Shown here: positions 4,982-51,000 of the stretch, piece by piece | How the letters are laid out: each line of letters opens with the position of its first letter | How positions within the stretch are numbered: the first letter of the stretch is position 1 | Source: a virus | Lineage: Duplodnaviria > Caudoviricetes | IMG/VR virus record: IMGVR_UViG_3300045594_000287 | Span: 1-64,000 of that record | DNA: 64,000 nucleotides | Strand: one strand, 5' to 3' | Notes under the pieces: generated by a model | The model's database searches: none | What the model saw: the letters and a program-made list of their open reading frames with translations, nothing else | Told to the model about the DNA's origin: nothing | Translations under genes and position numbers: made by a program

Positions 4982-6913
4982 TTAGCCTACGACGCTTTCG
5001 AAATAGGCCATGCCATCAACTGGCACGCCATTCTCATCTACATCGTATGAAGGAGCAACCTGTTCTTTGGCAGGCTTGCAATAACGACCACTGAGACGAC
5101 CGGTGCGGCGAACCTCATGTTTTGCACTGGACACTTTCATATCTAACGGCTCAACGAACTCGGTATCCTGGCTATCTTTCACGTCAGACATGAGTACGAG
5201 AGCAACCTTATGATTCTTCTTCACCTGCACCCCATGCTTACCGGAGACTTTCATCTCAAGTTCGCAGGAAATCATGCCGGTAATTTTGCCAGTCTTATTA
5301 CGGTACATTGCCTGAATCGATTCCGGATTATCAGAGCCCAAAGAAGTTCTGAATTTACCGATCATCTTTCCATCAACGACAATTGCATCGTGAAGATCTT
5401 TGCCGTCTTGCTGCTTACGATATGGAATCAATGTAACTTCCTTGTCTTCCATCTTTTTCATAACAGCTGTAAGATTTTCATCTCCCCAATCACTCCCCTT
5501 AGTGATAAAGCAGAGAACAGATCCATCCGGATCTTCAGGAGCGAGAACTTCTTTGATGAGCTTAGAAGCTACAAGATGTCCATTCTTGTTCTTGCGAATA
5601 GTGAATTCACCATCAAGCTCATCATCGGCAGCTTTTGCGAATTTGCCATCATCGCCATAAGCCTCGCCGAAAACGAACTCTGCCACATCGCCTTCCTTGA
5701 AGGTGCAGCTGATGAGTTTGTCCTCGGTATACTTTGCAACCTTGTCTTCATCCTTGAAGATCTGCAGCACGAATGCGAGGAACTCCTTATCCAAGACGCC
5801 ATGCGCATAACTGGAATACTGACTGTCTTCTTTGTTATCTCCAACCATGATGACAGATACCAGTACGGCAGCCCGCATGGATGCACTGAGATCGCGCATC
5901 TGGAATCTCAGAGTCTTGGCAAGGTAGGTATAGAAGGGTGCCATATCCTTTTTGAGATCCTTGATATGAGCCTCAGCCTTATAGCGATCAGGATACCGAT
6001 CACGAATATCTCTGATGCGAGTTGCCTGCACATTAGAAATAGAGCTATAAGCCTGTTTTAAGAACTCTGCCACTTGGCAAGCGCCGGTATGTTTTGGCAC
6101 GACAGATGTTTCCATCCATGCCAAAGTACGCTGGCTGAACTGCTGCTTCATCTTTGCAAACTCCTTTGCAAACGTGCAGCCTGCCTTCAATGACAGAATC
6201 CGGAGATCCTGCTGGAAGTCATGAATAACACGCACATCCTGTTTTGTGCCATCCTGAAGCTTCTTGACAGTCGTATATGACGGTCTCTCATCACATACGT
6301 ACTTAACACCGCAGAATCTCTTCCAGCCATGCTCCTTGCGGCCGATAAACTCATCGTGATCCGGTTCAAGGATGATTCTCTTCTTATCCTCATCCATGCA
6401 ATGACGCCAATCGACTTCGAAATTGAAATCGTTGTCGCTGCGTTTCCTTGACATCATTTTGACATTGCTCATGGCCTGGGCATAATCAAGGCAGAGTACC
6501 GGATCACTTGTCTTGAATGTATCAATCGACATCTCCTGCCCCATGCGGCCATTTGCATGAAGATCAGTTAATGCTGCCATGCAATTGTTCTTCGTAAGCT
6601 TCATCTCACGAGAATTCGCGACAATTACATCCGACTTCAAGATATCAATTCCCTGTGTGGGAATGTTATTATCTTGAACTTCCGGATTGCCAAGCGGAGA
6701 CACATATTCTGTTTCTCCACCGTTATTGCCAAAGCCAATATTGAAGATGGCTTTGACATCCTCCGGAACTTCATCTTTTGCAGCATTAAGCTGTACTAAT
6801 GCCTCTGAGAACGGAAGATGACGTACCGTTACTCTACCGACATCCAGGCTGTCATTAGCCAGGATATTTTTGAGGGCTTGGTTTCCAATATTGTAGTTCA
6901 TAACGTTTTCCAT
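4982..6913 (-). CDS. C-terminal part of a split YonO/RdRP-like RNA polymerase (643 aa)
   Basis: NDSLDVGRVT resembles the post-catalytic N..LG.I helix, and QEMSIDTFKT resembles the (A/V)(V/I)D(F/Y)AKT motif of cellular RdRPs and YonO. Own AGGAGG RBS; directly downstream of the DFDGD gene. Confidence 0.7.
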   Translation of the reverse strand: MENVMNYNIGNQALKNILANDSLDVGRVTVRHLPFSEALVQLNAAKDEVPEDVKAIFNIGFGNNGGETEYVSPLGNPEVQDNNIPTQGIDILKSDVIVANSREMKLTKNNCMAALTDLHANGRMGQEMSIDTFKTSDPVLCLDYAQAMSNVKMMSRKRSDNDFNFEVDWRHCMDEDKKRIILEPDHDEFIGRKEHGWKRFCGVKYVCDERPSYTTVKKLQDGTKQDVRVIHDFQQDLRILSLKAGCTFAKEFAKMKQQFSQRTLAWMETSVVPKHTGACQVAEFLKQAYSSISNVQATRIRDIRDRYPDRYKAEAHIKDLKKDMAPFYTYLAKTLRFQMRDLSASMRAAVLVSVIMVGDNKEDSQYSSYAHGVLDKEFLAFVLQIFKDEDKVAKYTEDKLISCTFKEGDVAEFVFGEAYGDDGKFAKAADDELDGEFTIRKNKNGHLVASKLIKEVLAPEDPDGSVLCFITKGSDWGDENLTAVMKKMEDKEVTLIPYRKQQDGKDLHDAIVVDGKMIGKFRTSLGSDNPESIQAMYRNKTGKITGMISCELEMKVSGKHGVQVKKNHKVALVLMSDVKDSQDTEFVEPLDMKVSSAKHEVRRTGRLSGRYCKPAKEQVAPSYDVDENGVPVDGMAYFESVVG

Positions 6914-6962
6914 GATATATTCCTCCTAATAAATAGAGCCGCCCATTGCTGAGCGGCCAACC

Positions 6963-9026
6963 TTATAATGCTGCCTCGAAAGCCTTGTCATCAGCTTTTC
7001 TCTTGACATCCGTATCAATCACGACAGCAAGAGGAGTTACATTCCAGAGAATATCGACAAAGCCGATCTCTCCGTCACTTTCCTCCCCATATCCAACACA
7101 TGCATCCCCATCGAAGTCCATGCCTGCCAGCATATTCTTCAACTCTTCCAGAGCTGGGATGGCAATGTTACCACCGGTCATTTTGCCAGCCTGCTCGATA
7201 ATCAACTTCTTCTGATAAGCAGTCAACTTCTCAGAAGCATTGACTCTGCGAGCATACTCAGCTAAAGAAACCGGTACAGCCTTTGCAAACTCTCTGAAAT
7301 GCATCTTTGGATATTTCACCAGAATCATGCGATTCCATTTAGCTGCATTGGCAACTGGGCTGATCACTTCACATTCTCCATCCTTGGAATACGTGAGAAT
7401 CCGTGCACCGAAGTCGGCGGCAGGATCTGTCGTCAATTTCATATATGCACCAGGCACAGTTACATTCAAGCGATTGAATGCAGTGACCAATCCTTTGCAA
7501 GCATTGTCAATATTACTACGGAAAATCGGTGCATAGTTTTCCAAAACGAATTTTGGAGCAATGCGTCCGATCAGTTGTGGAATATCGACATTTCCACTAC
7601 TGATCTCCGCATACGTCGGTGCGGATCCTTCATCTGCAAGCAGACGCTCACGAATGCTCTCAATCATGGCACGCATCTTACGCTCATACCAGACCTTCGT
7701 GGCTACCGGATCGATAACCATTGCAGACTGGATGCTCTGCGACGATGCGTTTGCGCCAGATTCTGGATGATGTTCAGTATGAGACATATCCAATGCATTC
7801 AGGCCCGACATCCTTGTCAAGTCAAACGGAGCCTTGAGCCCATTGAGATCAGTAGCATAATCCGCTGCTTCCTCGTCGCTCTTCCTTGAATCGACAATGC
7901 GCACCCACTTCCCTGCATATGCGCCTTCTTTGCCTTTAGAAAACACCGTCTTTGTGAACTTCGCCTGGATTTTATCATCTACCTCGTCACGATAGATAGT
8001 AACCATTTTAGTATGGTCAACAGAAATGCGATAATTGACAAACTCTTTCAAGTAAGCCCTCATCACGCACTGAGCCATGACTTTGCAGGTCCAAGGCCTG
8101 GTCTGCAGCGAAATGCCAGCTGGTGCATCAGGCATAACGAAATACCTCTTCGGATCTATCGCAGTAAGGCACTCTGCAACGAATTCCGATGCGACCATTG
8201 CGAATCCATCCTTGAACTCATTTCCAAGATCATCCTTGATCTTGCCCATGTATACAACGAAATTGCCTACATTAAGGAGTGGGGTGCTGCTGGCGCAGAA
8301 CGCTGATAAACGAACATTGCCCTGAGCTACTTCTTTTGGAGAAGCAACGCATGCCAACTGGCAGAGCTGATCACTTGCACCATATGTGACCTTGCTCCAG
8401 ATTGCCTTCCTATCAACTCCAGGAAGGTTGCATGCCGGCATAGTCAGTGTGCTCAACTTAAGCTGGCCTGCTGTACCGCGTGCACAGCTGTCTACATCAT
8501 TGTAGACAATAACGTCTTCTTTAACGTTACCATCGGCATTGAATACCTCAGACAATGGGGCTTCGTTATCCTTTTCTTCACCGAAGCGAAGAAGATCAAT
8601 AAGAACGCCATCATTCTCTGGATTAACCGTGTAGAATCTTTCGTTTACACCATCCTCACGATCCGGCACACGATAAATAACCTGATCGAGGATATATGCC
8701 ATGGCTTTATTCTGAATGGAAACATCCAGAATACCAACGGTATATCTTTGCACCATCTGTGGGCAATCTGCTTCAGTAGTTGCAGCTACTAAAACATTTT
8801 CCTGCATTGGCAACAAGGACGTCTCCAAACTTGGAGTAACGGTGATCAGCATACGCTGAACGCTGTCCTCATTGAAAACGAGCGACGTAGCCTTAAAGCT
8901 AGTCTCTGGCCGACTAAGTGCAAGACTGCGCATTGCCTCTACCTGGTGGGCAGAGAGCACGACTTTCTTTCCAAGAGCACGCTGCTCCCGGATCTTCTCG
9001 TTGCGATGGCTAATAAACTTACTCAT
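6963..9026 (-). CDS. YonO/QDE-1-like double-psi beta-barrel RNA polymerase, catalytic N-terminal part (687 aa)
   Basis: Ordered motifs FKDGFAM (cf. TDG), LQTRPWTCK (cf. Q.R...K), KYPKMH (cf. K/R-x-P-x-x-H) and AGMDFDGD (DFDGD at nt 7104-7118). Start ATG 9026 with AAGGAGG. Confidence 0.85.
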   Translation of the reverse strand: MSKFISHRNEKIREQRALGKKVVLSAHQVEAMRSLALSRPETSFKATSLVFNEDSVQRMLITVTPSLETSLLPMQENVLVAATTEADCPQMVQRYTVGILDVSIQNKAMAYILDQVIYRVPDREDGVNERFYTVNPENDGVLIDLLRFGEEKDNEAPLSEVFNADGNVKEDVIVYNDVDSCARGTAGQLKLSTLTMPACNLPGVDRKAIWSKVTYGASDQLCQLACVASPKEVAQGNVRLSAFCASSTPLLNVGNFVVYMGKIKDDLGNEFKDGFAMVASEFVAECLTAIDPKRYFVMPDAPAGISLQTRPWTCKVMAQCVMRAYLKEFVNYRISVDHTKMVTIYRDEVDDKIQAKFTKTVFSKGKEGAYAGKWVRIVDSRKSDEEAADYATDLNGLKAPFDLTRMSGLNALDMSHTEHHPESGANASSQSIQSAMVIDPVATKVWYERKMRAMIESIRERLLADEGSAPTYAEISSGNVDIPQLIGRIAPKFVLENYAPIFRSNIDNACKGLVTAFNRLNVTVPGAYMKLTTDPAADFGARILTYSKDGECEVISPVANAAKWNRMILVKYPKMHFREFAKAVPVSLAEYARRVNASEKLTAYQKKLIIEQAGKMTGGNIAIPALEELKNMLAGMDFDGDACVGYGEESDGEIGFVDILWNVTPLAVVIDTDVKRKADDKAFEAAL

Positions 9027-9039
9027 TATGGTTTCCTCC

Positions 9040-9068
9040 TTTAATGGATAGACCACCTATGCTATAAT
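9040..9068 (+). promoter_or_regulatory. sigmaA-type extended -10 promoter P1 (antisense to the early operon)
   Basis: TG-C-TATAAT at 9060-9068; weak -35 TTTAAT at 17-bp spacing. Confidence 0.65.
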
Positions 9069-9105
9069 GAGTAATGCATAGGCGGGGTTAAATGGATAGA
9101 CATAG

Positions 9106-9141
9106 TTAAATGGATGGGACATTGTGCGATGACTTACTCAT
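9106..9141 (-). CDS. Putative leader uORF MSKSSHNVPSI sharing the start context of the RNAP gene
   Basis: AGGAAACCATAATGAGTAAGT is identical to the RNAP start context; stop at 9106-9108. Confidence 0.35.
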   Translation of the reverse strand: MSKSSHNVPSI

Positions 9142-9199
9142 TATGGTTTCCTTCTACCTTGTTTATGTACGAGAATACGGTTGCAGCCATATTCTCACG

Positions 9200-9228
9200 A
9201 GCCGGTTGTTGTCGCAGCCGGCTTTTTT
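9200..9228 (+). terminator. Intrinsic terminator of sRNA 1
   Basis: AGCCGGTTG-loop-CAGCCGGCT plus T run; the stem mismatch is a G-U wobble only on the + strand. Confidence 0.8.
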
Positions 9229-9248
9229 GTGCAAAGAGAAGGATTCCC

Positions 9249-9277
9249 TTGTCTGTAAGGGGTATCAGTGCTATAAT
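9249..9277 (+). promoter_or_regulatory. sigmaA promoter P2
   Basis: TTGTCT-17 bp-TATAAT with extended TG. Confidence 0.8.
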
Positions 9278-9283
9278 GAGCAA

Positions 9284-9383
9284 TGCATAAGTGTCTCCTA
9301 TTGAGTGGGTATGATTAACTATGCAACTGAGAGCGGTATTGCTGTTCTCCACGAAGTCGACTGCTGAGCACAGTCGGCTTTTT
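9284..9383 (+). ncRNA. Putative sRNA 2 (about 100 nt), same 3' architecture as sRNA 1
   Basis: Promoter P2, GAGA..TTCTC hairpin, terminator AAGTCGACTG/CAGTCGGCTT plus T run (9354-9383). Confidence 0.6.
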
Positions 9384-9416
9384 GTGTTACAAGAAGTTAA
9401 TCTCGGCTGCTGTGGT

Positions 9417-9445
9417 TTGAATGTGCCCTTCCGGCATGGTAGTTT
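9417..9445 (+). promoter_or_regulatory. Possible sigmaA promoter P3 (antisense to 9467-9688)
   Basis: TTGAAT-17 bp-TAGTTT with extended TG. Confidence 0.45.
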
Positions 9446-9466
9446 AACGTCATTCCGGACGATAGC

Positions 9467-9688
9467 TTACTGGATCTCGGCAGTGATGGTGTATTCTCCA
9501 TCTTCATAACTCTGGGATACAATCTTCATAGGAGCACCGCTCGTCTGACGGTATACGTCAACAATTGCTGCGCGGCGGGCCATCATCCTCCCCTGAGCAC
9601 CACCCATATTGACCGGTGCCATACCATGACCGACTACGATCATAGCAACGAGAGTAACAACGACTTTGAAACCTTTGAAATTAAACAT
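9467..9688 (-). CDS. Small protein with N-terminal hydrophobic/signal segment (73 aa)
   Basis: ATG 9688 right after the leader repeat RBS; MFNFKGFKVVVTLVAMIVVG. Confidence 0.7.
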   Translation of the reverse strand: MFNFKGFKVVVTLVAMIVVGHGMAPVNMGGAQGRMMARRAAIVDVYRQTSGAPMKIVSQSYEDGEYTITAEIQ

Positions 9689-9693
9689 AACGT

Positions 9694-9730
9694 ACCTCTT
9701 TCTCCCCGTATACGCCGATAGGACAGCAAT
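9694..9730 (-). repeat. 37-bp leader/RBS repeat, copy 1 (ATTGCTGTCCTATCGGCGTATACGGGGAGAAAGAGGT)
   Basis: Identical to 9993-10029, similar to 10243-10276. Confidence 0.9.
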
Positions 9731-9733
9731 CAA

Positions 9734-9814
9734 TTAATGGAGACGCTCTCCATGATCATCAAGATCAAGAAAAGCCTTAATAAATTCCCAAACCTCTTTA
9801 ATAAACTTTTTCAT
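9734..9814 (-). CDS. 26-aa amphipathic peptide MKKFIKEVWEFIKAFLDLDDHGERLH (not in the ORF track)
   Basis: Strong GAGGAGGA RBS; fills the gap between neighbouring elements. Confidence 0.6.
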   Translation of the reverse strand: MKKFIKEVWEFIKAFLDLDDHGERLH

Positions 9815-9828
9815 AACAGTTCCTCCTC

Positions 9829-9987
9829 TTACTTGTTAAGTTTTGCAATGTTTGCTGCCTGCGGATCACCATTCTTCCAAGCATCAGAAGCATCTTCAAA
9901 AGATACATCTTCCTCTGCCTTCACCATGTAGCCAATGGAAGCAGAAATACCAACAGCAGCGATAGCGACAAAAATGTAGATAGCCAT
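9829..9987 (-). CDS. Small membrane protein (52 aa)
   Basis: ATG 9987 after the leader repeat; N-terminal hydrophobic helix MAIYIFVAIAAVGISASIGYMV. Confidence 0.7.
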   Translation of the reverse strand: MAIYIFVAIAAVGISASIGYMVKAEEDVSFEDASDAWKNGDPQAANIAKLNK

Positions 9988-9992
9988 GATAA

Positions 9993-10029
9993 ACCTCTTT
10001 CTCCCCGTATACGCCGATAGGACAGCAAT
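9993..10029 (-). repeat. 37-bp leader/RBS repeat, copy 2
   Basis: Identical to 9694-9730. Confidence 0.9.
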
Positions 10030-10036
10030 AAAAAGA

Positions 10037-10237
10037 TTAAGCGTTTTCGACAATGTAACCACGGAAGATGTAATCACGAATCGTATCCGCGGTTACCTTC
10101 CCAGAGAAGTAGTCGTCAATTACCTTTTCCGTCTCTTTTCTGAGGCGAACAGGGAACTGTCCCATACGACCATTCTCCATAGGCAGCTCATACTGAACTC
10201 TGTAGTTGGATCCCTCAAAATCAAACGAAGTAAACAT
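10037..10237 (-). CDS. Hypothetical protein (66 aa)
   Basis: ATG 10237 after leader repeat copy 3. Confidence 0.7.
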   Translation of the reverse strand: MFTSFDFEGSNYRVQYELPMENGRMGQFPVRLRKETEKVIDDYFSGKVTADTIRDYIFRGYIVENA

Positions 10238-10242
10238 GATGT

Positions 10243-10276
10243 ACCTCTTTCTCCCCGTAGTCAGATAGGACAACAT
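10243..10276 (-). repeat. Leader/RBS repeat, divergent copy 3
   Basis: TGTCCTATCTGACTACGGGGAGAAAGAGGT. Confidence 0.8.
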
Positions 10277-10396
10277 CAGAATAAATACTCTTAACCCCTG
10301 TCTCTCACAGGGACGCCCATTCAACTCCGGTTTTCACGAGGCGCTACCTTAGTAGTTGGGTCGTCGTCTTTTATTTATAGTGCGTGACGTCAGCAC

Positions 10397-10425
10397 TTGC
10401 GTTTACCATAAGTAGGTGATAGAAT
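10397..10425 (+). promoter_or_regulatory. sigmaA promoter P4 (antisense to peptide gene 10426-10578)
   Basis: TTGCGT-17 bp-TAGAAT with extended TG. Confidence 0.75.
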
Positions 10426-10578
10426 TTATCTGTATTGTTCCACCACGACAGTCTGGAAGTTATCACTTCCATCAATAGCTGCAGGCGCCATAAGCACCAT
10501 TGCACCTATCAGTGCCGCCATAACGGCAGCGCCAATTCTGTTGAGGGTACGAGTTTTACCAAATACTTTAATAGTCAT
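10426..10578 (-). CDS. 50-aa single-TM peptide MTIKVFGKTRTLNRIGAAVMAALIGAMVLMAPAAI... (type I toxin-like; not in the ORF track)
   Basis: Translated by hand; AAAGGAG RBS; N-terminus similar to 10714-10851. Confidence 0.7.
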   Translation of the reverse strand: MTIKVFGKTRTLNRIGAAVMAALIGAMVLMAPAAIDGSDNFQTVVVEQYR

Positions 10579-10638
10579 GATTGCATTCTCCTTTCATGAC
10601 GCACTGCCCTAACATATCGTAAGTATGCTAGGGCTTTT
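10432..10638 (+). ncRNA. Putative cis-antisense RNA 3 covering peptide gene 10426-10578 and its RBS
   Basis: P4 upstream; hairpin GCCCTA..TAGGGC plus TTTT at 10606-10638 (one A-C mismatch on this strand). Confidence 0.5.
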
Positions 10639-10665
10639 CCTTATAGAAGGCAGTTTTTATTACCC

Positions 10666-10694
10666 TGGACATGCTCAGGCCCAGCTGTTACAAT
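10666..10694 (+). promoter_or_regulatory. sigmaA promoter P5 (antisense to peptide gene 10714-10851)
   Basis: TGGACA-17 bp-TACAAT with extended TG. Confidence 0.75.
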
Positions 10695-10700
10695 AAGAGA

Positions 10701-10914
10701 TGCAAGATATTGTTTACTGTGCGATACGAGCTAACTGCATAATATGCCCATACCAATCAGCACCTACCAGTGCTGCTACAGTTGCTATAGTATATACAGC
10801 TGCAGTAGCACGGTCTAATGAACGGATCTTGCCTAAAAATTTGATAGTCATGATTGAATCATCCTTTCTTCATGACGCCTTGCCCTAGCGTCCCTATGTG
10901 CTAGGGCTTTTTTT
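10701..10914 (+). ncRNA. Putative cis-antisense RNA 4 covering peptide gene 10714-10851 and its RBS
   Basis: P5 upstream; terminator GCCCTAGC/GCTAGGGC plus T7 at 10882-10914. Confidence 0.6.
10714..10851 (-). CDS. 45-aa single-TM peptide MTIKFLGKIRSLDRATAAVYTIATVAALVGA... (type I toxin-like; not in the ORF track)
   Basis: Translated by hand; AGAAAGGA RBS; leader shared with 10426-10578. Confidence 0.7.
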   Translation of the reverse strand: MTIKFLGKIRSLDRATAAVYTIATVAALVGADWYGHIMQLARIAQ

Positions 10915-11191
10915 GTTCTTTCTTTTCGCTCAAAAGAACTTCATTGAGAACACTACCCGGGGGCTCAAAAGCCCCCATTGATGTTTCATAAAAAGTACCG
11001 GGTCCCTCGATAAATTTTTTATAATTTTCGAATCCCTATAGGCGTTTTCTGAAAATATTTCATAACATTTTTTCTTTTCCTATAAATTTTCAGTATATTC
11101 GGTAAATTTCGGGCGGAGGTAACTTTTTAGATCCCAGATGAAGTACAGAATCTACGAAGCGTAATATTCCTGTATGAGGAGGGAAAAGAAT

Positions 11192-11479
11192 ATGTCAAAA
11201 GTATGGGTTAATGGAAAAGGGCCTGTAGAAGGCTCATTCTCTTTCGAAGTTGCACTTGATGAAACGGCACAGCCGCCTGTATATATCATTGAGGGAGTCT
11301 TTTCGTGTGCTCATGGGTACTATGAAGAGATCGACAGTTTGGTTAACGAGAGGTATCGTCTGGACCGTGTACGCGTGTACAAGGAAGTGTACGGATCCGA
11401 TGAGGATACAATCTTGTATTATTTTCGGGCTGGAGACTACGGAATGAGAGACTTTAAGGAGGAAAAGAAAGATGGCTGA
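11192..11479 (+). CDS. Hypothetical protein (95 aa)
   Basis: ATG 11192 with GAGGAGGG RBS; overlaps the start of the next gene. Confidence 0.75.
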   Translation: MSKVWVNGKGPVEGSFSFEVALDETAQPPVYIIEGVFSCAHGYYEEIDSLVNERYRLDRVRVYKEVYGSDEDTILYYFRAGDYGMRDFKEEKKDG

Positions 11480-45062: not shown

Positions 45063-48000
45063 GTGCGAACATTGAGACAGAATTTTATAAATGACGATTC
45101 AAAGAAAATCGTTGAAAGCAAAGTAAATGATCATATCGGGAAAATCACCAGAAACTCCGTCGAAGAGCAGATCCTTGAAAAAAGCGATAAGACAGATAAA
45201 AATCTGTATAATAAAAATATTGACCAGTGGAGAGAGATTCATGGCGCCGAAATAGCTAATGGACTTCTGAAGTCAACTGACGCGGTTGCGGGAATAAATG
45301 TCAGAGCGATAAAAAATACGCTGACAAACGCTCACAGTTCTCAGATCATAATGAATCCTTCTGAACTTTACGGGGAAACTCGTAAAAGTCGTTACCTCGA
45401 AGCAGACGTAAAAGAAGTCTACGAAAAAATGGGAATGGATGCCTTCGAGCACGTCCTTGACCTGAATGAAACTGGAAGCAAATACTTTGTAGGAAAAACT
45501 GCAACCAGTATTGCATTCCAGCATACTAACCGTGGTGTAAAACAGAACTATGACAGAATGATGGCCGGAATCAAAAACTCCGAAGAAAAAGGCCTGTTCG
45601 TAGACTGGGATACAGAAACCATGAGCGGAACTAATAAATTTGGAAAACAAATAGTCGACCAAATGACAGAGTTTACGTTCAAAGTTGCAAATTACGATGA
45701 CGGATCTATTGTAAAAGGACGTTCCTACGGCTCGATCATCGGTGCCACGGAAGCACAATACAATGACTACTTGAAAAAAATTGAACGCTATGAAAATGGT
45801 GGATCGCTTTCAAATTTAGATAGAGTTGAACTTAACCGCTTAGCTTTGATGGGTAAAAGCAAGGTCAAGGAAACCGAAAGCGGCATCCATAATTACTCCT
45901 ATTTCGCTGGTGCGGAAGAAGTAGCTGAAAACCGTTCAGAGGATATGCGTGCCGGCCTCGAGCAGTTATTTGGTATAGGTAAAGCTCAGCAAGCAAAAGG
46001 CGCCGTAGAAGAATATGGCGGGCAGAAAATGTTTGCCTGGGAGAAAAAACTATTCCAGGGCTTAGATGAAATCATTCAAAATGATCTCACTGCAGTCGGA
46101 CACAATACACTCACATTCGATAACGGCGTTATGCTTCATCAGTTGCAGCATGGAATGTGGTCTGCAGGCGGCAAGGCATATGCTGACCAAATGCTTAAAG
46201 CTACCAATGGATTGCATTTTGAGCATGAGAATGATACTATCGCGATGATTCGTCAATCCGTTCCAGATCGTCTTCAGATTTATCGCAATGCCGACGGTAC
46301 GTTAAACCAAGCAGCAATGCAGTACAACAAAGAACATGGTCTTACACTATTCCAGCAGGAAGCGATTCAGAATGCAATGAATAGTGACTTCTATGCTTCT
46401 ATTGGTGCTGCTCATACGTCAGATGTCGACGTACAGGCAAATGCTATGATGTACGCTTCAAATAAATTGAAGCTCAATACGGAAGAATCGTTCTTCAAAG
46501 GAATGCCGGAGTCTGCTCCATCGATCCAGCTGACTGGAGGAAGTAAGCAGCTACTGTATGCAATGGAAGGCGGCGGCATAGAATATAAGGGACTGCTGGG
46601 TTTTGTAACAGATCCATTGACTGGAGATATTCGCACATCTGATAAGTATCGGATGAGTAAAGTACCTACGGGCGGAGAAATGGCTTCAGAAGTAAACAAA
46701 GACTTCTTTGCCACTGGCAACATTCACAAAGGTGTATCATACACCATAAGCAATGCAACAAAAGTGGAGACGTCAGACGAGTTCCGCGACCTTATCGGGA
46801 AATATAGGCCGGGGATGGATGTCCGCAGTCTGGTAGCCGTACAACTTATGCCGGTATCCAATTCAAAAACAATGCGGGCAAAAACACCTTACACTTTGAT
46901 TGGATCCATGACCGATGTGCAAGACTATATCAATCATACTTTTTTGCATACTGGACATGCCGTTGAAGACTCCCAGGGACATAGAACCTGGACTGCCAAT
47001 GGCATTCCGGAAGAATCGAGACGACTTCTTCAGGTAAGAGAATTTGCCAACGACGGTGTCCATGCCGGATTTAAGGATTATTCTCTCGAAGACCAGCTTG
47101 CTGAAAGCTCCTATCGTCTTACGAATGAATCTGCTGCCAGAGTAGTCCGTGCGCATGAACTGAAAAAAGACGTTGGCGTATTACGATACGTTCAGGATAT
47201 GGATAAGTATGCCCGGGAAAACGCTATCGATCCGACTGATGAATATCAGATGGAAAATATGCGGCAAAAATTCCGCGACAGCGTATTCAGCCGTTCAAAA
47301 AGCATCGAATCCAAAATTCGCAGTGGAAAAGGGTACGAAGCAGAAGAAATGGTTGGAACGTTCCACGACTATTTCGGGTATATAGATCGTGATACGAAAA
47401 ATCCAATGGTATGGTCAGATACGGTCATGTCAGCTCTGGATCGCGAGGGATATGTTCGTAAAAACCAGCAAGTGATTTCCGGCGCTATTAAACATGCCTA
47501 TGCAAGAGCAGGCGAGTCTGTTACTGATCAAGACATTTCTCATATGACTGCCCTTCAGAAAAAGAACAAAGAAGCTTCCGCCTACTATAGAATGTACATG
47601 GAGTCTGCTACAGATGCAGCTATCCGTAAATTTGGATCAGGCCGGCCCGTAGGGGAGCATCGGATGGGTATCCATACATACGAACTCAACCAGTTTGAGT
47701 TTGACATGAATGGTTACAAAGGGAATTTCAATCCAGACAATGATATATTTAGTGTCCATCTCGGTGAAAATGGCAATACGATGGTCAATCGTTTGCTGCG
47801 TCATCAAGGCTTGCGCACAGACATATCTGATGAAGCAAAGATTGCCGAGCTGCGTAGATTTCAAAAATTTATTGGTGGATCCGAAACTCTCAGTGAGCTG
47901 AATTCAACCAGAAGAGAACTTCTGGAAAAAAACAACTTAATCAACATTGGTGAAGATACAATAGACTCTGCTGCAACGAAGATTATAACCCCGCTGCAGA

Positions 48001-51000
48001 ACTCTCGTCAGTACCAGCCGGCAGGCGGTCGTATTACTCCTACGCTGAAATACGAGCTTGCCGCTTCCATGGAGAACATGGGACTTGATAACCCTGAGGA
48101 GGTGTTGTCAAAAGCAGATAAAACGATCCCCAAGATTTCTATATATAGTTCTAAAACTGGCGCAGACAGCTATGCACACGATATCGTTAACAGCGTATTG
48201 TTCAACGATCTTGATGGGAAAACACTCGATGAAGTAAGAGACGACCTCCAGGAGTATGGATATACTCGTGAGCAGGCAGAAAAAATCATCGCTATGAGAG
48301 AGCAGCGCAAGGCTGATGCGCAGCCGTTCATGAAACGACTGATCGAAAGTGTTCAAAAAAATGGAGGCTCAATCGGATATAACGCAGAAGATCGTGAGGT
48401 GTTCGTAAGCCATAAAGGGAAGACAACAAAATTAAATAATCTTCCCATGGATGAATACTCCAATGGAATGTTCTATACCAGGGTGAATAATTCAAAAGTC
48501 CATGCATCGTCAGGATTCTACGCTACTGGAAAGTATAAAGATGGAAAAGGAACTTTGAAGTTCGGTTCATCGTTATTGAAAGCTGGAGACAGCGTAGGCT
48601 GGATGGATACAGCTATCGCCAGAGGTGCTGAAAACGGAGACCTTGGAGATGAGGTAAACAGCGTCCTTAGTGGGTATGCGAAGGTTATTCGTGAAAATTC
48701 TTCTATCATGGAAGAAGATCTTCAGGACATGCGTGGGCAGTTTGACATTAACTATCGCGAAGTAGCCCCGTTTATCGAAGATAACTGGGATCAGATATCC
48801 CAAAATATGGTATTTGATGATTCGCCTCAGGGGCAGATAAACCAGATTCTAAGAGATGCTGCGATGGACGGTAAACTTAGTGGTGACCGGCTTAACTTTG
48901 AGTTGAATTCTGCCATCATCCAGAATGCAGACAACATCTTGCCAGTAATGGCACAAAAATATGGTGGAAGCTATGCACAGACCATTATGTCTGGTTTTTC
49001 TCTCAATATGAAACATGCTGGAGAACTTAAGGCCAGCGCAACAGAAATAACGAATTTTGGCGACGACTTAGATAGTGGTAAGCGTGACGTAGCAAGCTTC
49101 ACAGGACGTGCTTACAAATTCCGCGCGGATGGAAAAGTTGATGGTGTTCGTATAGGACAATCTGTAACATCTGAGATAGCAGGTAATTATGCAGAAGACG
49201 CCGGCGAAGGAATCTCATACGGTGTAGATACAACACTTCGTACTGGCCGTGTACGAATGACAACCAGCGGGCTGCGTAATCTCGTAAATAGTGCAGACAT
49301 CGACAATGACTATGTACGAGACGTGTTGACTGGAATACATTTGGACGAAGGATCTGCTGCTGCCGATCCTAGACTTATAGATCAGTATTTCACTAGACGT
49401 AAGTCTATGCAGAGAATCGCAATGCATCGAATCTTTGACATGGACAAAGATACAATCGATAACCTTAGCACGAAGCAGCATACTGCTCCAATTCTAAACA
49501 TTGACCCTAAAACGGGTAATATCAGTTTCACGTATTCGAACGGCCTATTCGTAGAAAGCACAGACTTGTCGGGAGAAAGCCCGATTAGCGTCAAAGGATT
49601 CCAGGGTGCAAAAGAAGAAGTTGCAATCAAAGAAGCTGGTTTGTTCAACGTTGGCTTCTTCTCGAAGAAGGGTAATCTTTTTGCTGACCAGCAGAGCGTA
49701 ACAGATCTTTTAAATAGCAAGAAATACCATGGCCGCATCGTGAATGCAGAAGATTCGCGTCTAGAGGCTCTTAACGTCCTGAATGAAGTATACAACGCTT
49801 CGTTCTACAATCTGTCACTGGATGCCAACGGAAATACAAAACTCGGAGAACAAGCAGAAAAAGGCATGTATAATGCCCTATTTGCTACGCCTGGAGCAAT
49901 AGATAAACGTGTAGGAAGCACATTAGACCGACTAGGCCTTAGCAGCATGAAGGATCTTGTGCCGAGGTTGGATTTCATCGAATCCCTAAACGCGAAAGAT
50001 ATATCAAAAACTCCATTGGGAGCAATGATCAGTGCAAAAGCTGGACGTAACGTATCTCATGATGAGATTCTAAAAGTAATCGGCAGTGAATTTAACAGTG
50101 CGAAAAGCATGTACGATGCAATGATGGAAGAGCGCTATAAGCCATGGGATACGCTCGAAAGTATTGCTCGTAATGCTAATGTTATAAAAAATGGAGAAAC
50201 GGTCCATGCTTTCAGCAACACGATTGCTGCAGAGAATAAGCATTTAAACGCACGATCCGTCTTGAGAGTTACAGATAACCTCCTCGAAAAATATAATGGG
50301 GATGCCCAAAAAGTCGCATCATTGCTGCAAGAAGCAATGCCAGGGATTCACGTTGGTGGCAGCGGGCGGCTGTATCACAGTGGAGATATTGATATTGATG
50401 CTGTGATGGAAATAGCGAATAAGGAACTTGACGGCAACGTAAGAACCTTCTACACAAATGGAAACAAAACCATTTCAGCAGAACAATTCAGCATGCTTCC
50501 TGAAGGCGAAAAAGGAAAATGGAAAAAGAACGAATCCAGTTATGCATACACTGAATTAATGCAGCTCCCAGACCAGGACCGTGAGCGCTTAAGTGACGAG
50601 AATGGAGTTGGCAAGACCCTAAAGATGGATCATCGTACCAAGGCAATGCTTGATACCCAGGTCTACAGCAAAGAAGGTCTTAAGAATGTTCGTAATGGCT
50701 TTGTTGATTCAATGGGCAAAGAAGCTGGCGAAGCTCAGTATCGTAAGTATTTTATGGATGCCCAAAACGGAAAACTTGTGGCTGAAGGACTTAGCGACAA
50801 GATAAACGATTCAAGGTATTATGATCCAGGAGATAAACGCGTTGCTATCGATGGAGGACAAGATTTAACTAAAAAAGACAAAGAAGAAATAAGCAAGGCA
50901 AAGGAAGAGCTTAGAAAATCTGGAATAAACAAAAAGATTGCTGACCAGATAATCGAAGAAGCTCGAACCGCCGGAGTTAAAGACGTTGGCGTAGGGGCTA

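What the first reader, a model, noticed from the sequence alone, without database searches (positions are those of the whole stretch)
9002..9228. Antisense sRNA carrying a duplicated copy of the RNAP translation-initiation site
Seen: 9132-9152 is a perfect 21-nt direct repeat of 9017-9037, extending to 24 nt with one G-U. TGCGATG (9125-9131) matches 9002-9008 across an 8-nt bulge, and AATGGATAGAC (9091-9101) matches 9043-9053 just upstream of the RBS. All lie inside a + strand unit bounded by TGcTATAAT (9060-9068) and a terminator (9200-9228). This RNA does not overlap the RNAP gene yet would pair with its RBS and AUG. Known analogues: P1 c4 and P4 CI immunity RNAs. Inference: a translational repressor of the phage RNAP.
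Basis: partly seen in the sequence, partly recalled or inferred. Interest (0 to 1): 0.9.

Follow-up and report, generated by a model that had tools for sequence, protein, structure and literature searches.

The report
Candidate phage sRNA mirroring RNAP start site
An uncultured 107-kb gut-type phage carries, next to its own RNA polymerase gene, a probable 155-base non-coding RNA gene holding a copy of that gene's ribosome-binding site and start codon, so the RNA could pair with the message and block its translation; no transcript or related phage confirms this yet.

Summary
9017-9037 and 9132-9152 are an exact 21-nt direct repeat. Read as RNA pairing it extends to 24-25 bp with one or two G-U pairs. 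It is the second-longest exact repeat in the 106,938-bp genome.

Copy 1 is the Shine-Dalgarno site, the ATG and codons 2-3 of a 687-aa minus-strand gene. By fold, that gene is the catalytic part of a split QDE-1/YonO-type two-barrel RNA polymerase.

Copy 2 lies in an ORF-less + strand unit with four supporting features:
- an extended -10 promoter;
- a + strand-specific terminator;
- folding that is much better on + than on -;
- a paralogous second unit 209 nt downstream.

Predicted sRNA-mRNA pairing is favourable: ddG -20.8 kcal/mol, against -1.8 for the paralogue. It is the sRNA's only outlier target in the genome.

Three weaknesses remain:
- no expression data could be obtained;
- three independent assemblies are identical, so covariation cannot be tested;
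- 18 distant relatives (24-42% protein identity) lack both the duplication and the sRNA.

Best reading (about 0.45): a host-RNAP-made antisense sRNA represses translation of the phage RNAP. The closest known designs are par RNA II/RNA I direct repeats and the divergent IstR-1/OhsC/OrzO antitoxins, rather than P1 c4 or P4 CI. The scan has noted analogous, non-homologous anti-start-site sRNA candidates in other phages.

The parts
6963..9026 (-). Target gene: 687-aa N-terminal catalytic part of a split two-barrel (QDE-1/YonO-like) RNA polymerase. DFDGD lies at residues 637-641.
   Evidence: ORF. 193 representative homologues, both split and fused. Invariant motifs. AF2 model with pLDDT 84. Foldseek to QDE-1/RDR2 at E about 1e-9, phi14:2 gp66 at 2.5e-3, P23-45-type gp64/gp62 at 1e-2.
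4982..6913 (-). Second RNAP gene (643 aa), equivalent to the C-terminal half of fused homologues.
   Evidence: BLASTP to residues 675-1183 of the 1219-aa homologue P0016, E 1e-19. The 687-aa protein matches residues 31-660 of the same protein.
9016..9040 (-). Translation initiation region of the RNAP gene (repeat copy 1). The SD AGGAGG is the complement of 9035-9040 and the ATG is the complement of 9024-9026.
   Evidence: Sequence, repeat family D1, 25-bp helix.
9040..9068 (+). sRNA1 promoter: TTTAAT, 17-nt spacer, TGc-TATAAT (extended -10). Its -35 region overlaps the SD DNA of the RNAP gene.
   Evidence: It is one of only 10 sites in the genome that score 11 or more.
9053..9085 (.). 10-bp palindrome flanking the -10 box. 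On minus-strand RNA its 13-nt loop is complementary to both start sites over 11 nt (ATAATGAGTAA).
   Evidence: Inverted repeats I1, I5 and I9; folds.
9075..9228 (+). Predicted sRNA1, about 154 nt. It has a 5' domain closed by a 14-bp stem with 5 G-U pairs, hairpin A and a terminator.
   Evidence: Fold -56 kcal/mol, z -4.15. The 5' domain gives z -2.71 on + and +0.73 on -. Pair lists. No Rfam family.
9131..9155 (+). Anti-start-site segment (repeat copy 2), complementary to the SD, the AUG and codons 2-3 of the RNAP mRNA.
9125..9131 (+). TGCGATG, a copy of codons 7-9 of the RNAP gene (9002-9008). It is colinear with the main helix across an 8-nt mRNA bulge.
   Evidence: D11.
9088..9120 (+). Two copies of TTAAATGGAT(A/G)G(A/G)AC; a third copy lies at 9040-9053. 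In sRNA1 they form the arm that pairs imperfectly with the anti-start segment. They may also be protein-binding or promoter elements.
9106..9141 (-). 11-codon frame opened by the duplicated start site on the minus strand (decoy start or uORF).
   Evidence: Read from the sequence; frame checked by hand.
9171..9196 (+). Hairpin A of sRNA1, shared in architecture with sRNA2 (9329-9349).
9199..9228 (+). Intrinsic terminator of sRNA1: 11-bp stem with 3 G-U pairs, then six U.
   Evidence: On the minus strand no T-run follows the stem.
9249..9277 (+). sRNA2 promoter: TTGTCT, 17-nt spacer, TGc-TATAAT. The TGCTATAAT-to-GCATA segment (9269-9289) is 20/21 identical to sRNA1's (9060-9080).
   Evidence: (D2).
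9284..9383 (+). Predicted sRNA2, about 100 nt. It has the same 3' scaffold and a different 5' domain, with no outlier target in the phage genome.
   Evidence: Fold z -4.03 on + and -0.95 on -. Helix scan maximum 17 bp with 5 G-U. Cofold control ddG -1.8.

Best explanation
A small non-coding RNA (sRNA1, about 154 nt, + strand, roughly 9075-9228) is transcribed by the host sigma-A/sigma-70-type RNA polymerase. Its promoter is an extended -10 element that sits back-to-back with the start of the phage's own RNA polymerase gene. The RNA's 5' domain contains a captured copy of that gene's first 40 or so nucleotides (SD, AUG, codons 2-3, then codons 7-9). Because it is read from the opposite strand, it is complementary to the RNAP mRNA over 24-25 contiguous base pairs covering the SD and the start codon.

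Pairing would block 30S binding and possibly create an RNase III substrate. That would limit or time synthesis of the catalytic subunit of the split two-barrel RNAP.

Shown:
- the repeat and its uniqueness;
- the identity of the target as an RNAP;
- the promoter and terminator signals;
- the strand-asymmetric structure;
- the paralogous sRNA2;
- the favourable and specific predicted duplex.

Inferred:
- that the RNA is made;
- that the mRNA's 5' end lies downstream of it, or that the sRNA is in excess;
- that pairing represses translation;
- the biological purpose.
For: 1. The repeat is exact over 21 nt and 23/24 overall. It is the second-longest exact repeat in the genome. It gives the only outlier helix between sRNA1 and any other place in the genome: 25 bp, against 18 or fewer elsewhere.

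2. The copy sits in a unit with a TGcTATAAT promoter and a strong terminator that has a T-run only on the + strand. Only 10 sites in 107 kb score as well for sigma-70 signals, and 3 of them are + strand sites in 9040-10694.

3. The + strand folds far better than shuffles and far better than the minus strand. Values are z -4.15, -4.03, -3.37 and -2.71 on + against -1.78, -0.95 and +0.73 on -. The cause is many G-U pairs, 9 of them in the 5' domain.

4. A paralogue 209 nt downstream shares the promoter (20/21) and the hairpin-CACGA-terminator scaffold. The terminator stems differ by one compensatory change (G-C to A-U) and by one-sided changes that keep wobble pairs.

5. No plausible ORF, no Rfam family, and gene callers left the 440-nt gap empty.

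6. Cofolding with the mRNA 5' region gives ddG -20.8 kcal/mol with the 25-bp helix over the SD and AUG. sRNA2 used as a control gives -1.8.

7. Two further + strand promoter-terminator units lie antisense to small leftward genes at 10397-10640 and 10666-10914. Antisense RNA control therefore appears to be a theme of this early region.

8. The target is a polymerase.
Against:
- There is only one lineage. Three assemblies are 99.99-100% identical, so selection on the two copies cannot be tested.
- All 18 relatives examined (24-42% protein identity) have no start-site duplication (longest match 6-12 nt). None has a homologue of the sRNA units.
- In the free sRNA the anti-start segment is mostly base-paired. 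Unpaired probability is high only at positions 58, 63, 72-74 and 78-81, so pairing kinetics are uncertain.
- No good minus-strand sigma-70 promoter lies between the sRNA and the gene (best 8/12). If the RNAP mRNA starts upstream, it contains the perfect 154-nt complement of sRNA1, which would out-compete the 25-bp site.
- TIR-containing repeats are common in this region (37-nt repeats), so duplication alone is not evidence of function.
Confidence: 0.45

Rival explanations
1. Relic of a local duplication. The 5' end of the RNAP gene (about 40-50 nt) was duplicated during cassette shuffling in this recombination-prone early region. The second copy is a recent, neutral remnant that happens to lie inside, or was overprinted by, a + strand unit. 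It has no regulatory role.
For: - Every exact repeat of 18 nt or more in the genome lies in 9.0-10.3 kb and contains an RBS, so start-region duplication is frequent here.
- The copy has an 8-nt deletion and a rearranged flanking motif, which looks like decay.
- The duplication is absent from all 18 relatives.
- The close copies are identical, so recency cannot be excluded.
Against: - The copy sits exactly inside a structured domain. A 14-bp closing stem begins 1 nt after its 3' end.
- Its orientation relative to a strong promoter and terminator is the one that yields a complementary RNA.
- 21 nt remain exact while the flanks have diverged.
Confidence: 0.2
2. The + strand RNAs act in cis. sRNA1 and sRNA2 are antisense to the long intergenic leader of a leftward polycistronic transcript that runs from the small early genes into the RNAP gene. 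They would work through a full-length duplex cut by RNase III, through transcriptional collision, or through promoter occlusion. The start-site copy would be incidental or secondary.
For: - No minus-strand terminator and no good minus-strand promoter lies in 9027-9466, so read-through from upstream is plausible.
- sRNA2 has the same build but no trans target.
- Two other + strand units are plain cis-antisense RNAs over small genes.
- RNAP bound at the sRNA1 promoter would cover the RNAP gene's SD and leader DNA (-35 at 9040-9045).
Against: It does not explain why a 25-bp complement to the downstream start site is embedded in sRNA1 only. It is compatible with the main hypothesis rather than exclusive of it.
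Confidence: 0.2
3. The feature works at the level of the leftward mRNA. The duplicated start is a decoy ribosome-binding site opening an 11-codon uORF (9141-9106). The hairpin at 9085-9053 has a loop complementary to both starts and toggles between them, which would set RNAP translation without any + strand RNA.
For: - The 11-nt loop-to-start complementarity is exact for the true start. For the decoy it extends to 16 nt at 88% (I5, I1).
- The decoy keeps an SD-like AGAAGGA and an ATG.
Against: - The minus-strand RNA of this region folds no better than shuffles (z +0.73 for 9169-9075; -1.78 for 9228-9080).
- The stems rely on G-U pairs that become C-A mismatches on the minus strand.
- The + strand terminators and promoters are left unexplained.
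- The loop complementarity also follows trivially from the promoter's -10/discriminator sequence.
Confidence: 0.1

Closest known systems
par locus of Enterococcus plasmid pAD1 (RNA I / RNA II, direct repeats DRa and DRb)
   Same: Direct DNA repeats read from opposite strands make two otherwise non-antisense RNAs complementary. The pairing blocks ribosome binding to the target message (PMC4147584).
   Different: In par the two RNAs converge and share a terminator, there are two repeat blocks, and the target is a small toxin (Fst). Here the genes are divergent or back-to-back, there is one main 24-25-nt block, and the target is a polymerase gene of a phage.
Divergent type I antitoxin sRNAs: IstR-1/tisB, OhsC/shoB, OrzO/zorO, AgrB/dinQ
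   Same: The sRNA gene lies next to its target and is transcribed divergently. Complementarity is limited to a short stretch rather than being a full overlap (PMC4147584; PMC3919570 listed).
   Different: [quoted passage not shown] Here the complement covers the SD and the AUG. Their targets are toxins and they are chromosomal in E. coli.
   Same: Phage-encoded small RNAs that silence a key phage regulator by pairing with short blocks that include a ribosome-binding site (my own knowledge; not tested here).
   Different: c4 and CI are cut out of the same transcript that holds their targets, so the DNA shows inverted repeats. They also belong to temperate immunity circuits. Here the repeats are direct and the RNA has its own promoter on the other strand. 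No integrase or repressor appeared among the 48 proteins scanned against Pfam. No Rfam C4 match was found.
Virion/non-virion RNAP cascade of Thermus phage P23-45
   Same: A phage with a giant virion protein and a separate non-virion two-barrel RNAP encoded among the first genes expressed (bioRxiv 10.1101/2022.12.01.518664). gp64/gp62 structures appear among the fold matches.
   Different: No sRNA control of gp64 is described there. The virion RNAP of the present phage is only suspected (a DYDSD motif in the 2883-aa ORF).

Membership tests
Any described RNA family (Rfam 15, including the C4 antisense RNA) | Match to a covariance model at or near the gathering score | tested here: not met
   No hit at gathering score in the whole window. 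Over 8900-11200 at E<=1 only two chance snoRNA hits appear, both elsewhere.
par-type (RNA I/RNA II) direct-repeat antisense control | Direct DNA repeats lie in two transcription units of opposite polarity | tested here: inconclusive
   The repeats are direct and the + strand unit is predicted from its promoter and terminator. Transcription of neither strand was observed.
par-type (RNA I/RNA II) direct-repeat antisense control | The complementary block covers the target's translation initiation region | tested here: met
   The 25-bp helix spans the SD AGGAGG, the AUG and codons 2-3.
par-type (RNA I/RNA II) direct-repeat antisense control | Convergent genes sharing a bidirectional terminator; the target is a small membrane toxin | tested here: not met
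   The sRNA1 gene points away from the target gene. The terminator has a T-run on one strand only. The target is a 687-aa polymerase subunit.
Divergent type I antitoxin sRNAs (IstR-1 class) | sRNA and target mRNA are divergent and non-overlapping | tested here: inconclusive
   The gene bodies do not overlap. Whether the mRNA 5' end lies downstream of 9075 is unknown. The best internal minus-strand promoter is weak: TTAACC-16-CATTAT at 9091-9064, 8/12.
Divergent type I antitoxin sRNAs (IstR-1 class) | Pairing site lies in the 5' UTR away from the start site; the target is a toxin | tested here: not met
   Pairing is on the SD and AUG and the target is an RNAP.
P1 c4 / P4 CI immunity RNAs | The RNA is processed from the same transcript as its target sites (same strand, so inverted DNA repeats) | tested here: not met
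   The repeats are direct. The RNA has its own promoter on the opposite strand.
P1 c4 / P4 CI immunity RNAs | Part of the lysogenic immunity circuit of a temperate element | tested here: inconclusive
   No integrase or repressor domain was found among the 48 proteins scanned against Pfam. Most proteins have no family at all.
Two-barrel RNA polymerases (QDE-1/RDR, YonO, crAss gp66, P23-45 gp64), for the target gene | Metal-binding DxDGD loop | tested here: met
   DFDGD at residues 637-641. D637, D639, G640 and D641 are invariant in 16 homologues.
Two-barrel RNA polymerases (QDE-1/RDR, YonO, crAss gp66, P23-45 gp64), for the target gene | Overall fold with two double-psi beta-barrels | tested here: met
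   The AF2 model (pLDDT 84.1, pTM 0.80) matches QDE-1 and RDR2 at E 1.8e-9 and prob 1.00 over about 700 columns. It matches phi14:2 gp66 at 2.5e-3. The barrels themselves were not inspected individually.
Two-barrel RNA polymerases (QDE-1/RDR, YonO, crAss gp66, P23-45 gp64), for the target gene | Template-dependent RNA synthesis | not testable with these tools
   Needs purified protein.

The most novel reading that the evidence does not exclude
The phage has a modular, 'programmable' sRNA cassette: a fixed host-type promoter, a fixed hairpin-plus-terminator scaffold and an exchangeable 5' domain. One cassette was re-targeted by capturing the start region of the phage's own non-virion RNA polymerase gene.

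Together with two further antisense units, these host-RNAP-made RNAs would oppose a leftward early operon that has no host-type promoter and may be read by an injected virion polymerase. The host polymerase would thus be used as a clock or brake on the phage polymerase cascade.
Probability: 0.25. Interest if true: 0.75.

Novelty: new variant of a known kind. Interest (0 to 1): 0.5.

Why it matters
Control of phage-encoded RNA polymerases is known mainly at the protein level (for example inhibitor proteins) or through promoter cascades. I know of no described case where a dedicated antisense RNA shuts off translation of a phage's own polymerase, and the paper searches here turned up none.

If real, this would add an RNA layer to the virion/non-virion RNAP cascades now being found in crAss-like and Thermus phages. 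It would also show a simple evolutionary route to a trans-acting sRNA: copy the target's start site into an existing sRNA scaffold on the other strand.

It is directly testable with a reporter fusion and compensatory mutations. The family of split and fused two-barrel RNAPs it belongs to (193 representative clusters, no Pfam, PHROG or GenBank phage match) is itself essentially undescribed.

Tried and rejected
- Nucleotide and protein searches of GenBank phages: no match.
- Pfam, PHROGs and PDB sequence searches of the 687-aa and 643-aa proteins: nothing. Only the fold search identified the polymerase.
- Search for the duplication in relatives: 18 loci from Logan, ENA, IMG/VR and JGI were tested and none has it. 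The most syntenic relative (the P0004 contig, with a 393-nt gap upstream) had no DNA available.
- Exact-pattern scans of IMG/VR. The promoter motif gave one hit (L069). It is a coding-region coincidence with no similarity to this genome. The start-site 20-mer gave none.
- GTDB genomes: only two distant hits in a Gemella-labelled MAG.
- blastn and nhmmer of both sRNA units against all fetched loci: no homologue.
- RNAduplex scan over 291 start regions: poorly discriminating because of unconstrained loops. It was replaced by the uninterrupted-helix scan.
- The second-best helix for sRNA1 (18 bp at 96758-96775): rejected as a target. It lies inside a + strand coding region, so the mRNA there is sense, not antisense.
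- + strand ORFs 9110-9304 and 9114-9290 and the minus-strand ORF 9134-9352: rejected as genes. They have no SD, they run through the terminators and promoters, and they were not called in any assembly.
- Tiny minus-strand frames as type I toxins: rejected, at 11 and 5 codons.
- A covariance model of the shared scaffold: not built. Two sequences aligned out of register in hairpin A.
Full report
**Context**

The window is the first 64 kb of a single 106,938-bp virus record with 44.5% G+C. About 11 kb at the left end is read leftward. It holds small genes, two large genes of unknown family and a Pif1/Dda-like helicase. Everything else is read rightward, including terminase, portal, capsid and three giant ORFs of 2146, 2883 and 2755 aa. 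Start sites carry strong AGGAGG Shine-Dalgarno sequences, here and in relatives. I take this to suggest a Gram-positive-type host, which is inference.

**The observation**

- 9017-9040 and 9132-9155 are 23/24 identical, with 21 exact.
- TGCGATG recurs at 9002-9008 and 9125-9131. Its offset is 8 nt larger than that of the main repeat.
- AATGGATAGAC recurs at 9043-9053 and 9091-9101, with a diverged third copy at 9109-9120.

Copy 1 is the SD (complement of 9035-9040), the ATG (complement of 9024-9026) and codons 2-3 of the minus-strand ORF 6963-9026. So about 40 nt of the gene's 5' end was duplicated, with an 8-nt indel.

The 21-mer is the second-longest exact direct repeat in the whole genome. 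Shuffled genomes give 16-36 identical 14-mer pairs against 98 observed, and nothing near 21 nt is expected by chance. Two other assemblies (JGI and Logan) are 99.99-100% identical. The repeat is therefore not an assembly artefact. For the same reason there is no variation to analyse.

**What the target is**

The 687-aa protein has no Pfam, PHROG, PDB-sequence or GenBank-phage match. An exhaustive HMMER search found 193 representative clusters, some of about 650-750 aa and some of about 1200-1500 aa. In 16 aligned homologues QxR, KYPK and DFDGD are invariant.

An AlphaFold2 model (pLDDT 84.1, pTM 0.80) matches several solved polymerases:

| Match | Foldseek E-value |
|---|---|
| QDE-1 and plant RDR2, over about 700 columns | about 1e-9 (prob 1.00) |
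| Virion RNAP of crAss-like phage phi14:2 | 2.5e-3 |
| Non-virion RNAPs of P23-45-type phages | about 1e-2 |

The neighbouring 643-aa gene aligns with residues 675-1183 of a 1219-aa fused homologue, whose first 660 residues match the 687-aa protein. The target is therefore the catalytic N-terminal part of a split two-barrel RNA polymerase.

**The + strand unit**

Copy 2 lies between TTTAAT-17-TGcTATAAT (9040-9068) and an 11-bp hairpin followed by six T (9199-9228).

A second unit follows. Its promoter is TTGTCT-17-TGcTATAAT (9249-9277), and the TGCTATAAT-to-GCATA segment (9269-9289) is 20/21 identical to 9060-9080. It has the same order of hairpin, CACGA linker and terminator. The motif TGCTATAATGAG(T/C)AATGCATA occurs nowhere else in the genome.

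Four points argue that the + strand RNA is the functional product.
- The T-runs follow the stems only on the + strand.
- Stability and z-scores are strongly asymmetric:

| Region | z on + | z on - |
|---|---|---|
| Unit 1 5' domain | -2.71 (-26.5 kcal/mol) | +0.73 (-8.4 kcal/mol) |
| Unit 2 | -4.03 | -0.95 |
| Unit 1, 9080-9228 | -3.37 | -1.78 |

- The stems contain many G-U pairs, which would be C-A mismatches on the other strand. There are 9 in the unit 1 5' domain and 3 in each of three other stems.
- Between the two terminators there is one compensatory change (G9205-C9218 against A9360-U9374), plus one-sided changes that keep wobble pairs.

No credible ORF exists on either strand, gene callers left the 440-nt gap empty, and no Rfam family matches. 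I rate the existence of the two sRNAs at roughly 0.7.

**Pairing**

A genome-wide scan for uninterrupted helices (G-U allowed) gave, apart from sRNA1's own antisense locus, one outlier. This is 25 bp with 2 G-U between sRNA1 positions 57-81 and the complement of 9016-9040. The next best were 18, 17 and seven of 16 bp. The 18-bp site lies in a + strand coding region and is not a target. sRNA2 has no outlier; its maximum is 17 bp with 5 G-U.

Cofolding sRNA1 with an mRNA starting at 9057 gives ddG -20.8 kcal/mol, with the 25-bp helix over the SD and AUG. sRNA2 gives -1.8.

In free sRNA1 the anti-start segment is the 3' arm of a long, imperfect, G-U-rich hairpin. Its 5' arm is made of the AATGGAT repeats, and only positions 58, 63, 72-74 and 78-81 are open. 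This bulged-stem design is common in antisense RNAs (my own knowledge), but it leaves the kinetics uncertain.

The AATGGATAGAC match is not colinear with the main helix. I read it as the internal partner arm and/or a protein-binding or -35-proximal element, not as an extension of the duplex.

**Relatives**

I examined upstream regions in 18 loci encoding homologues at 24-42% identity, drawn from Logan, ENA, IMG/VR and JGI. The longest direct repeat of the start region there is 6-12 nt, against 21 nt here. None contains anything similar to either sRNA unit.

Three relatives (L001, L002, L009) do carry an antisense-oriented TGnTATAAT 85-91 nt upstream of the polymerase ATG. In L001 and L002 it is followed by a hairpin plus TTTTCTC. 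An antisense promoter next to this gene may therefore be an older theme, but the captured start site is lineage-specific. The most syntenic relative could not be read.

**Who makes the mRNA?**

No minus-strand terminator and no good minus-strand sigma-70-type promoter lies between the small early genes and the polymerase gene. The best internal candidates score 8/12.
- TTAACC-16-CATTAT (9091-9064) shares its -10 with the sRNA1 promoter and would start near 9057. That is 18 bp from the sRNA1 start, a bidirectional-promoter geometry.
- TACATA-18-CATAAT (9169-9140).

In the whole 9.0-11.2 kb region every strong host-type promoter is on the + strand and drives a short terminated unit: 9040, 9249, 10397 and 10666. 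Two of these units cover small hydrophobic-peptide genes completely. The head of the leftward operon has no such promoter.

In P23-45 an injected virion RNAP reads the pre-early genes, including the non-virion RNAP gene. A similar cascade here is possible. The 2883-aa ORF has a DYDSD motif but no Pfam match, and I did not test it further.

**Mechanism and rivals**

My best explanation (0.45) is translational repression of the RNAP catalytic subunit by sRNA1 pairing at the SD and AUG.

It works most simply if the mRNA starts downstream of 9075. If the mRNA starts upstream, it contains a perfect 154-nt complement of sRNA1. The cis effects (duplex cleavage, collision, promoter occlusion) would then dominate. 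That is rival 2 (0.2), which is compatible with the main idea rather than opposed to it.

Rival 1 (0.2) is a recent neutral duplication. TIR-containing repeats are the only long repeats in this genome and all lie in this region. Against it, the copy is framed exactly by a + strand-specific stem and has the one orientation that yields a complement.

Rival 3 (0.1) is a decoy start and uORF (9141-9106) with a hairpin loop complementary to both starts (I1, I5). The minus-strand RNA shows no excess structure, and this rival leaves the + strand signals unexplained.

**Comparison with known systems**

The logic of direct repeats read from opposite strands, producing a block that hides the ribosome-binding site, is that of par RNA I/RNA II of pAD1. 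The adjacent-divergent layout is that of IstR-1/tisB, OhsC/shoB and OrzO/zorO. Those sRNAs, however, avoid the start site and target toxins (PMC4147584).

P1 c4 and P4 CI are functional analogues only. They lie on the same strand as their targets, are processed from the same transcript and serve lysogenic immunity (my own knowledge). No Rfam C4 match and no lysogeny gene was found here.

I therefore call this a new variant of a known kind, with an unusual target.

The scan's earlier notes list analogous, non-homologous 'anti-start-site' sRNA candidates in other phages. I did not test those and give them no weight as evidence.

**Verdict**

Interest 0.5.

Noticed in passing
window 9694-9730, 9993-10029, 10241-10276: A 37-nt exact repeat (with a 17-19-nt third copy) ends just before the ATG of three unrelated small leftward genes and includes their SD. 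It is the longest repeat in the genome. All exact repeats of 18 nt or more lie in 9.0-10.3 kb.
   Followed up: partly
window 10397-10640 and 10666-10914 (+): Two more + strand units, each an extended -10 promoter plus a hairpin/T-run terminator. Each is fully antisense to a small leftward gene for a 50-aa or 45-aa hydrophobic peptide beginning MTIK. The layout is type I toxin-antitoxin-like.
   Followed up: partly
window 9000-11200: Every strong sigma-70-type promoter in the early region is on the + strand and drives a short terminated unit. The leftward operon, including its head at 10900-11170, has none. The leftward genes may be read by a phage polymerase.
   Followed up: partly
window 4982-9026 (-): The two-barrel RNAP is split into two genes (687 + 643 aa) about 50 nt apart. 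Homologues exist both split and fused at 1200-1500 aa. The family has no Pfam, PHROG or GenBank-phage representative.
   Followed up: yes
window 45063-53714 (+): The 2883-aa ORF has a single DxDxD-type motif (DYDSD at residue 2284) and no Pfam match. It is a possible virion RNA polymerase.
   Followed up: no
window 9064-9074 (+) against 9019-9029 and 9134-9144: The -10/discriminator sequence of both sRNA promoters (ATAATGAG(T/C)AA) is the reverse complement of the start-site core. The promoters may themselves derive from inverted copies of the start region (I1, I2, I5, I7).
   Followed up: no
window 9046-9053, 9094-9101, 9113-9120, 9717-9725, 10016-10024, 10264-10272 (-): A loosely shared minus-strand motif TGTC(C)YATC sits 10-30 nt upstream of several leftward SDs. 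It could be a phage promoter or operator element.
   Followed up: no
G000 105617-105646 (-), beyond the window: A perfect consensus TTGACA-18-TATAAT on the minus strand near the right end of the genome, between + strand ORFs.
   Followed up: no
L001 1846-1900; L002 3898-3950: In two distant relatives a strong sense-strand terminator-like hairpin (z -4.1) directly upstream of the polymerase gene overlaps an antisense TGCTATAAT. Transcripts starting inside it would escape termination. The same loci have repeated hairpin plus anti-SD modules before small genes (D4).
   Followed up: partly
L014 5648-6628 and 11726-12655 (G000 89648-90628, 95726-96655): Two radical-SAM domain proteins in the rightward block.
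   Followed up: no
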